NCBI GenBank assembly: GCA_964016885.1
Contig: OZ024746.1
Location: 54,436,001-54,500,000, forward strand
DNA: 64,000 nucleotides
Direction of reading: 5' to 3'
Source of the DNA: Eledone cirrhosa
Lineage: Eukaryota
The translations under genes and the position numbers were made by a program. Below are positions 61,199 to 62,789 of this stretch, piece by piece (position 1 is the first letter of the stretch; each line of letters opens with the position of its first letter). The notes beneath the pieces are model-generated. The model saw only the letters and a program-made list of their open reading frames with translations. It was not told the DNA's origin and made no database searches.

Positions 61199-62573
61199 TA
61201 TATATATATATAAGCATATATTTATTTTTTTATTTTCAATAGAGTTCTTAAACACGTTGGATTGATAATGTTTTCAAAAAAACTAATTAACCCGCGTGTA
61301 TATTATTTTTTTTCCTCATTTTGTGGATTGTCTCCCCTTCCCGCTTCGTGTCGCTATGATACTTCCTCAGTCAAAAACTGCTGGAATTTCAAATTTGGCG
61401 GTCATTCGAGGTGAGAGAGAGCAACTTTACGGACATGATTTTTGACAGCGGTAAGAAATTGTTTTCTTATATCAATGTTTAATGGGCTTCCACTGATTAT
61501 TTATAAGTGCCCACCTAAATATATTCTTACATGAATATATATTAGGCTTCTACATAAACTGGAAACATTCTCCTAAACTTGTAGAAAACTTATAATGAAA
61601 CAATTGTTTGGAAAGAGAGATATACTTTAACTTTAATTATATCTCATAAAATAATACAACTGGTTTTTCCACATTATACATATTGTTAGCACCCCAAACA
61701 CTTAAATTGGGTTTATATTTTAATATAACCTAATGTTTGTTGAGTGAGATGGTTACCAGTCAGAGTTTAGCTTTAAACTATCTCTGTTATTGTATTAAAT
61801 TATATATATATATATATATATACATATATATATATTTATATATATACATATATATATATATACACATACATATATATACACACATATATATTTATATTTA
61901 TATATATATAAATATACATATATATATATATATATATATATATATATATATATATATATATATATATATATATATATATATATATATATATATATATATA
62001 TATATATATATGCATATATATTGTGCGTGTACTTCAACATACGTCCAGTTTCATATAAACACTCTTTATATGAAACAACATTTATTCGTAACCGTACATG
62101 TATCAATATTTATTCAGGAATTAAGAAACGTGACTTTACAAATCAATTTGTATGTTAAAGTGCAGTCAACACCCACTAACATATTCCCAAGAATTAAATA
62201 TCTATGATGAGGTCATTGAGTACAAAAAATAATTCCATTTAACTGTTTAAATTAATTTGTGGTGATTTCATTCACTTGGCCTCGGCTTATATCTTTTCTT
62301 TCTTTTTCGTTGTTGAAACGTCTCAATCGCTCTGCAACACAACACGTGACCATTCGATCGATTAATCATATGAATACTAATTGAATTGTCTATGTGTTGT
62401 CTTATAGATTATGTGATTGTTTGTGTGTCAATGTAAATATATGTACGCATACACACACACACACACATATATATATATATATATATATATATATATATAT
62501 ATATCTATATATATATACGAAAATAGTCAGGACCCCGATGGCAGAGCTCAAGCCGTTTCGACGGCTATTTCTG

Positions 62574-62686
62574 GACCATATCACGCTGAAAACACCTGTT
62601 CTCGTCCGATCACCGTAGTAAAGCAATGTCGCACCTAGTTAGTACTTAGATGTGTGACCGCTTTGGAAACCTACGTGCTGTAAGCA
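62574..62686 (+). pseudogene. 5S rRNA-derived copy, 5'-truncated by ~6 nt and diverged
   Basis: gaccatatcacgctgaaaacacctgttctcgtccgatcaccg..aagca..ttagtacttagatg.gtgaccgc..gtgctgtaagc matches metazoan 5S, including the box A and box C regions. Confidence 0.9.
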
Positions 62687-62789
62687 CCTCCTTATATATA
62701 TATATATATATATATATATATATATATATATATATATATATATATATATATATATATATATATATATATATATATATATATATATATAT

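What the first reader, a model, noticed from the sequence alone, without database searches (positions are those of the whole stretch)
62518..62692. 5S rRNA retrocopy fused back-to-back with a Penelope-type arm inside (TA)n
Seen: 62518-62575 is the tail-less inverted arm of the 22452/25825/44648 family. At the shared gac it switches into 5S sequence, which runs to the 5S 3' end and then (TA)n. The 5S occupies the place of the usual tail-bearing arm. Inference: PLE machinery reverse-transcribed a cellular 5S RNA in trans at a (TA)n site. If multicopy, it could be a 5S-promoter (SINE3-like) element dependent on PLEs.
Basis: partly seen in the sequence, partly recalled or inferred. Interest (0 to 1): 0.7.

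Follow-up and report, generated by a model that had tools for sequence, protein, structure and literature searches.

The report
5S RNA caught in Penelope insertion
A single damaged copy of the small 5S ribosomal RNA sits head-to-head with the short end of a Penelope-like jumping gene inside a TA repeat, and seven similar pairings occur elsewhere in this genome, likely because the element's enzyme copied two different RNAs onto the two sides of one DNA break; it is not a spreading 5S-based mobile element.

Summary
The anatomy is real: (TA)n, a 59-nt tail-less arm of a coding Penelope-like family (Hydra-like motifs), then 5S nt 9-119 on the opposite sense, a 6-nt 3' trailer, (TA)n. The arm ends at the family's commonest turning point, where its own tail-bearing arm normally follows (41 of 47 fetched loci). 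The element is single copy, so the SINE3 idea fails. The anatomy recurs: 7 of 15 dispersed 5S copies ending directly in (TA)n carry a head-to-head, TA-anchored arm, against 1 of 84 ending otherwise (p=2e-5 without this locus). Five of those partners are non-coding repeats whose Penelope link is inferred; counting only the proven family, the contrast is not significant (p=0.27). Best reading (0.6): one insertion in which both ends of a break were primed, one on Penelope RNA and one on 5S RNA. It works like mammalian antisense 5S/LINE-1 chimeras; my searches found no printed Penelope case. No empty site or target duplication could be tested. The scan noted the same mechanism before, with a tRNA, on other DNA of this genome (e1-9947558).

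The parts
62469..62517 (.). left (TA)n target array, preceded by (CA)n
   Evidence: sequence
62518..62576 (-). tail-less 3' arm of the Penelope-like family; element sense is the minus strand, its 3' end faces the left (TA)n
   Evidence: 84-91% to 4 window copies; family encodes RT plus C-terminal GIY-YIG-type domain; ends at reference position 141, inside the modal 10-nt bin of arm ends, 15 of 42 arms
62576..62686 (+). 5S rRNA copy, nt 9-119, 9 differences in 111 from the majority of 15 copies with a similar trailer
   Evidence: Rfam RF00001 59.9 bits
62687..62692 (+). 3' trailer beyond the mature 5S end, likely the precursor tail at which copying was primed
   Evidence: same trailer type on other dispersed copies; no arrayed source gene with this trailer among 14 hits
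62693..62791 (.). right (TA)n target array
   Evidence: sequence
22452..22644 (+). ordinary compact copy of the same family for comparison: tail-less inverted arm plus tail-bearing arm
25825..25996 (+). second ordinary compact head-to-head copy
44648..46079 (-). longer head-to-head copy of the family; its 1017-nt arm reaches the end of the ORF

Best explanation
This is a single-copy, dead 5S retrocopy joined head-to-head to a short Penelope-like arm, likely made in one insertion in which the element's enzyme primed both ends of a break in (TA)n, one end on its own RNA and the other on a 5S RNA. Shown: the two parts, their opposite senses, the (TA)n on both sides, the single copy number, the family's usual two-armed structure and the recurrence of the anatomy. 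Inferred: the endonuclease cut both strands of (TA)n; the left 3' end copied 59 nt of element RNA from the tail-less start to the usual turning point; the right 3' end paired with the U-rich trailer of a 5S precursor and copied it to nt 9; the two cDNA ends were joined over a 1-base overlap. The product has no means to move again.
For: The arm stops at the modal turning point. After an intact tail-less arm, 41 of 47 fetched loci continue with the family's own inverted arm and 6 with (TA)n, so 5S occupies the second arm's place. Of 15 dispersed 5S copies that end in (TA)n, 7 have a TA-anchored repeat end fused head-to-head (window, L154, L150, L149, L151, L152, L153; plus reading by eye), against 1 of 84 that end otherwise (L137); Fisher p=1.8e-5 without the window locus. 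In the flank-blind sample of 57 copies it is 3 of 4 against 1 of 53, p=5e-4. At least 29 of the first 75 non-TA-ended copies have a microsatellite at their 5' side, and none of these is fused; intact Penelope hairpins lie beside such copies, separated by TA (L027, L134, L271). All eight joints differ, with 0-4 base overlaps. All eight stop in the short 3' trailer and none carries array spacer, which points to an RNA template. A purified Penelope-like protein cleaves and extends both DNA strands, starts at two internal sites that bound the tail, and is predicted to be a dimer (PMC11167929, parts 1-2 of 4 read).
Against: Only three pairings involve the family shown to be a coding Penelope element (window, L154, L137); for that family alone the contrast is 1 of 14 against 1 of 84, p=0.27. 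Families B and E have no ORF and no Rfam hammerhead; C and D were not linked to an ORF. L137 is fused but its 5S does not end in (TA)n. The 7-of-15 count uses a library built from the TA-ended class and manual reading; two automatic classifiers labelled only 3 and 2 of the 7 as TA-anchored arms. Most dispersed 5S copies are fused to SINE or LINE-type tails, so another reverse transcriptase plainly copies 5S RNA here. No target duplication can be read in (TA)n, no relative genome is held, and reads did not bridge the locus. The in vitro work found that the protein needs part of its own RNA for activity and did not, in the parts read, test foreign RNA.
Confidence: 0.6

Rival explanations
1. One event, two enzymes: the Penelope-like protein made the break and the arm, but a LINE reverse transcriptase copied the 5S RNA onto the other end.
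For: Most of the 84 non-TA-ended 5S copies carry SINE or LINE-type 3' ends at varying joints, so LINE-type enzymes handle 5S RNA in this genome; 8 of 15 TA-ended copies have no arm; L137 mixes an arm with a non-TA 3' end.
Against: Needs two machineries at one break; arm fusion goes with TA-ended copies and almost never with tailed ones. Sequence cannot separate this from the best explanation.
Confidence: 0.17
2. Two events: a 5S retrocopy lay in (TA)n first; a short Penelope arm landed beside it, and target loss or a later small deletion removed the TA between them and 5S nt 1-8.
For: Both kinds of insert crowd into (TA)n (166 runs of 5 or more TA units in the window); lone tail-less arms that run straight into TA exist (6 of 47); the 5S part differs more from its majority (9 of 111) than the arm core does (2 of 47), which leans towards an older 5S but rests on few letters and on a source variant that was not found.
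Against: Such fusion should not depend on the far end of the 5S copy, yet it does; neighbours that arose separately keep TA between them (L027, L134, L271); the arm ends at the usual turning point, not at an arbitrary place.
Confidence: 0.18
3. A SINE3-like family: the 5S promoter drives a composite RNA that Penelope enzymes spread.
For: 5S-derived sequence with recognisable promoter boxes.
Against: Two patterns for the joined unit hit only this locus in 3.0 Gb; the arm is upstream and antisense; box A has 2 of 15 and box C 3 of 18 differences from the array gene, and no run of 4 T follows for 257 bases; the one hit for 5S followed by a sense arm was an unfused neighbour.
Confidence: 0.02
4. 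Assembly artefact that joined two repeats across (TA)n.
For: No listed contig or read piece bridged the joint with long sides.
Against: The joint lies between two non-TA sequences, both parts carry private changes, and the anatomy recurs at seven other loci with distinct joints.
Confidence: 0.03

Closest known systems
Antisense 5S/LINE-1 and tRNA/LINE-1 chimeric insertions of mammals, attributed to twin priming (bioRxiv 10.1101/2025.02.02.635956, also PMC13174262; passages and section 21 read)
   Same: Small RNA copy opposite in sense to the retroelement, 5S start at the junction, each case a unique dead insertion; two reverse transcriptions from the two ends of one break are proposed.
   Different: The partner here is a Penelope-like element, not LINE-1; the target is (TA)n with no readable duplication; the 5S keeps its 3' end and trailer, whereas the mammalian 5S parts are typically cut near nt 46 or 90; timing by orthologues was possible there and not here.
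Head-to-head inverted ends and optional tail of endonuclease-bearing Penelope-like elements (PMC8557442, passages and section 11 read; PMC11167929, parts 1-2 of 4 read)
   Same: Inverted 5'-truncated arm, tail at one end only, (TA)n targets, protein motifs of the Hydra clade.
   Different: One arm is replaced by a host RNA with no element sequence. The tail here is about 80 nt against the 30-40 nt described; no hammerhead was detected.
Host genes moved in trans by Penelope in Adineta vaga (PMC3846280, passages read)
   Same: Penelope machinery is proposed to move non-element sequence.
   Different: There the cargo sits between direct pLTRs on one template and the inverted junctions are explained by self-priming; here the cargo is a separate RNA in opposite sense, which self-priming on one template does not give.
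SINE3 (5S-derived SINEs; seen only as citations, features recalled)
   Same: 5S-derived sequence joined to a retroelement end.
   Different: Single copy, arm upstream and antisense, promoter damaged; not a member.

Membership tests
Penelope-like element, C-terminal endonuclease type (family of the arm) | RT followed by a C-terminal GIY-YIG-type domain in one reading direction | tested here: met
   ORF pieces in long copies L033-L061; LYRDD in 8, VIY..YI in 23 of 29 loci. Pfam gave no significant match for 3 pieces, so this rests on motifs.
Penelope-like element, C-terminal endonuclease type (family of the arm) | Inverted truncated arm and optional tail | tested here: met
   24 tail-bearing and 18 tail-less arms among 42; 41 of 47 head-to-head
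Hydra clade of Penelope-like elements | CxCx5C linker, CxxC before E, CxH after N, DKT, RWK, no CCHH | tested here: met
   20, 23, 26, 4 and 2 (RW[KR]) of 29 loci; the last two lie far 5' and were reached by few loci; one cysteine between VIY and YIG; features from PMC8557442 section 11
Hydra clade of Penelope-like elements | Canonical hammerhead ribozyme in the pLTR | tested here: inconclusive
   No hammerhead hit in L059 or L045 at E up to 1 and no core motif in the last 900 nt of L059; no full-length copy was examined. Filed as Hydra-like, not as a member.
Hydra clade of Penelope-like elements | Placement in an RT tree | not tested
   No reference proteins were fetched
SINE3 | Many copies of the same unit | tested here: not met
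   1 hit each (exact anchors, so diverged copies could be missed); 0 of 39 other DNA hits include the arm
SINE3 | 5S head with intact internal promoter | tested here: not met
   nt 1-8 missing; box A 2 of 15, intermediate element 0 of 6, box C 3 of 18 differences from the array gene (box positions recalled)
SINE3 | Partner element's 3' end downstream and in the same sense | tested here: not met
   Arm is upstream and antisense; the single candidate for a sense fusion was not fused
Antisense small-RNA/LINE-1 chimeras (twin priming) | Small RNA opposite in sense to the element, unique joint per copy | tested here: met
Antisense small-RNA/LINE-1 chimeras (twin priming) | Both parts inside one target-site duplication or absent together from an orthologue | not testable with these tools
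   Flanks are (TA)n; no relatives held; runs uninformative
Antisense small-RNA/LINE-1 chimeras (twin priming) | Partner is LINE-1 | tested here: not met
   Partner is Penelope-like: works like these chimeras, is not one of them
Functional 5S rRNA gene | Full length, T-run terminator, array spacer | tested here: not met
   Starts at nt 9; first T4 at 62944; array genes with a 1380-nt unit lie on C4 near 92.4 Mb

The most novel reading that the evidence does not exclude
Penelope-like enzymes build their head-to-head ends by two independent primings on two separate RNA molecules, and the second can be any abundant RNA with a U/A-rich 3' end and no element sequence. They would then be general retrocopy makers, responsible here for roughly half of the 5S copies that end in (TA)n, and the fold-back self-priming model of their inverted ends would be wrong or incomplete.
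Probability: 0.45. Interest if true: 0.72.

Novelty: new variant of a known kind. Interest (0 to 1): 0.5.

Why it matters
How Penelope-like elements make their inverted ends is described as unresolved (PMC8557442, passages); self-priming on one template was proposed (PMC3846280), while purified protein extends both strands (PMC11167929). An insertion whose two arms come from two different RNAs is what two-strand priming predicts and what fold-back on one template does not. The locus itself is a dead pseudogene, but the class gives a ready test: add 5S RNA to the existing in vitro system. It would also add Penelope-like elements to the enzymes that make small-RNA pseudogenes.

Tried and rejected
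SINE3 reading: rejected. Naiad assignment (first guess): rejected because the endonuclease is C-terminal; Neptune (second guess): dropped because the motifs fit Hydra. Pfam did not classify the ORF pieces. Rfam found no hammerhead in families A, B, E or in the C and D copies of L275. Two automatic flank classifiers were imperfect: one search used too loose a microsatellite rule, and chained into TA runs and missed family C; the 'Bp' hits among non-TA copies come from a SINE inside that library sequence and were discarded; L163, flagged, abuts a sense-strand piece of another family and was not counted. L084 and L088 are not 5S and were dropped. Survey of tail-less arms for foreign partners: 0 of 47 fetched loci (27 distinct from the first 30 rows plus 20 picked from the other 70 listed rows, of 457 matches), so capture is rare. 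Sequencing runs: three holders of one sample and three RAD-seq runs gave no test of presence or absence. The source gene of this 5S variant was not found: 14 hits, all dispersed. Folding of the element was not informative. Literature: searches showed no report of 5S or other small RNA joined head-to-head to a Penelope-like element; I saw listings only for most hits, the abstract and outline of bioRxiv 10.64898/2026.07.22.740005 and passages of PMC4758252. Subscription papers and Repbase are outside the library, and no supplements were read; those of PMC8557442 list Hydra families and may bear on the clade call.

Full report
Observation. The sequence reads (TA)n, 59 nt of a repeat arm (62518-62576), 5S rRNA (62576-62686), six further bases, (TA)n. 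The arm matches the copies at 22452, 25825, 44648 and 46079 at 84-91%. Rfam scores the 5S at 59.9 bits against a cut-off of 38. Against the arrayed 5S gene on C4 (1380-nt unit) the copy lacks nt 1-8 and differs at 14 of 111 positions; against the majority of 15 dispersed copies with a similar trailer it differs at 9. The six bases after the mature end match a trailer type seen on other copies, so the template was likely a precursor, although no arrayed gene with this trailer turned up among 14 hits. The 'shared gac' is uncertain: 40 of 59 intact 5' ends read ACGGCC and 4 ACGACC.

The arm's family. A search with 44650-46079 gave long copies whose ORF pieces show an RT followed by a GIY-YIG-type domain. 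The motifs listed for the Hydra clade in PMC8557442 section 11 are present: CxCx5C in 20, CxxC-E in 23, N..CxH in 26 of 29 loci. No hammerhead was detected, Pfam was silent and no tree was built, so I call it Hydra-like. The element's sense at the finding is the minus strand, so arm and 5S meet 5' to 5'. Among 42 arms from loci not fetched as long copies, 24 start at the tail and 18 at or near the tail-less boundary, and the commonest 10-nt bin of end points (15 of 42) holds the position where the window arm stops. A pattern for an intact tail-less arm followed by (TA)n within 200 nt gave 457 matches; of 47 distinct loci fetched, 41 continue with the family's own inverted arm and 6 go straight into TA. 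The 5S therefore sits in the second arm's place, and such replacement is rare.

Copy number. The joined unit occurs once: an exact junction pattern and a looser arm-to-box-C pattern with up to 170 nt between each hit only this locus, and none of the 39 other best DNA hits includes the arm. These use exact anchors and can miss diverged copies. A transcript from the 5S promoter would start downstream of the arm, the promoter boxes are damaged and no T4 follows until 62944. The one hit for 5S followed by a sense arm was an unfused neighbour. The SINE3 reading fails.

Recurrence. A 17-mer at the 5S 3' end has 963 matches; the first 57 listed are dispersed and the next 43 lie in the C4 array, and 863 were not listed. 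I assembled 90 distinct non-array copies (including three in one decayed cluster, L105) and 9 more (judged by eye). Fifteen end directly in (TA)n; 84 end otherwise, mostly in SINE bodies or LINE-type tails at varying joints. Seven of the 15 have a repeat end fused head-to-head whose far end lies at (TA)n: the window; L154 (tail of the same family, 8 filler bases, 5S from nt 69); L150 and L149 (family B and a relative); L151 (E); L152 (C); L153 (D). One of the 84 does: L137, a roughly 430-nt tail-bearing arm of the same family with a 3-base overlap. Fisher p is 1.8e-5 without the window locus, and 5e-4 in the 57 copies chosen without regard to flanks (3 of 4 against 1 of 53). Joints differ in every case and overlap by 0-4 bases.

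Limits of that count. B and E are high-copy, non-coding repeats with a fixed end at (TA)n in 14 of 24 and 15 of 19 loci and tandem copies in 14 of 24 and 10 of 19, but no inverted copies in those loci. D shows one head-to-head fold-back with a tail between TA runs, and C starts at (TA)n in three copies. Their dependence on Penelope enzymes, and their sense, are inferred from that architecture. For the proven family alone the contrast is 1 of 14 against 1 of 84 (p=0.27). The arm library came from the TA-ended class; an all-against-all check of the first 75 other copies in 843 kb found 12 repeat junctions, of which only L137 is a head-to-head arm, but rare families could be missed. The same automatic runs labelled only 2-3 of the 7 as TA-anchored arms, so the count rests on reading the sequences.

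Mechanism. A purified Penelope-like protein cleaves and extends both strands of AT-rich DNA, starts at two internal sites that bound the tail and is predicted to be a dimer (PMC11167929). Applied here (inference): both ends of a break in (TA)n were primed, the left on element RNA at the tail-less start, the right on the U-rich trailer of a 5S RNA, and the cDNAs were joined. A two-step history predicts that fusion would not depend on the far end of the 5S copy, and neighbours that arose separately keep TA between them (L027, L134, L271). Against this, the 5S part looks somewhat more diverged than the arm core (9 of 111 against 2 of 47), LINE-type enzymes clearly copy 5S RNA in this genome, and no empty site or duplication could be read. 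I give 0.6 to Penelope enzyme on both ends, 0.17 to a LINE enzyme on the 5S end, 0.18 to two events.

Comparison and verdict. The closest known objects are the antisense 5S/LINE-1 and tRNA/LINE-1 chimeras of mammals, attributed to twin priming (bioRxiv 10.1101/2025.02.02.635956). This works like them but has a different enzyme class and target. Trans action of Penelope on host genes is known only for cargo between pLTRs (PMC3846280). Seven searches showed no printed Penelope case. Earlier notes of this scan on the same genome describe a tRNA in the same arrangement (e1-9947558) and 5S-SINE fusions (e1-10352695, e1-10328165); they are unchecked AI notes and not counted as support. They call the genome octopod; I did not test that. 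Verdict: a real, single, dead chimera and one of a small recurring class; new variant of a known kind; interest 0.5.

Noticed in passing
L002-L030, L099-L147, L259-L272: Most dispersed 5S copies are near full length and fused through a short trailer to several different SINE bodies or LINE-type tails at varying joints, in the same sense, like U6/LINE chimeras.
   Followed up: partly
L150:7709-7840 (G000 C3:324562809): The 5S copy is followed by TT and then its own first 8 bases before (TA)n, as if the template were a circular or self-ligated 5S RNA or the enzyme jumped.
   Followed up: no
G000 C4 near 92.40 Mb (L148): Tandem 5S array with a 1380-nt unit whose gene type differs from most dispersed copies; the spacer holds a decayed piece of the 5S 3' end.
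   Followed up: partly
window 61204-61800; L164-L188: Family B: high-copy non-coding repeat of about 997 nt, fixed end at (TA)n, head-to-tail arrays (C4 near 115.92 Mb), no ORF or Rfam hammerhead; a candidate non-autonomous Penelope passenger.
   Followed up: partly
L189-L208: Family E: non-coding unit of about 620 nt with partial tandems and a fixed end at (TA)n.
   Followed up: partly
window 62790-62982 and 63390-63640: Another head-to-head element right beside the finding, with a hammerhead-like core near 63425-63455 seen by eye (motif recalled; no Rfam hit at the gathering score; arms).
   Followed up: no
window 7362-18474: Two tandem copies of a LINE with two ORFs and 72-nt repeats upstream.
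   Followed up: no
window 37142-38002, minus strand: Endonuclease end of a second Penelope-like family, 34% identical to the arm's family.
   Followed up: no
L105: Three decayed 5S copies with array-like spacer in 3 kb: a relic array on C1 near 300.47 Mb.
   Followed up: no
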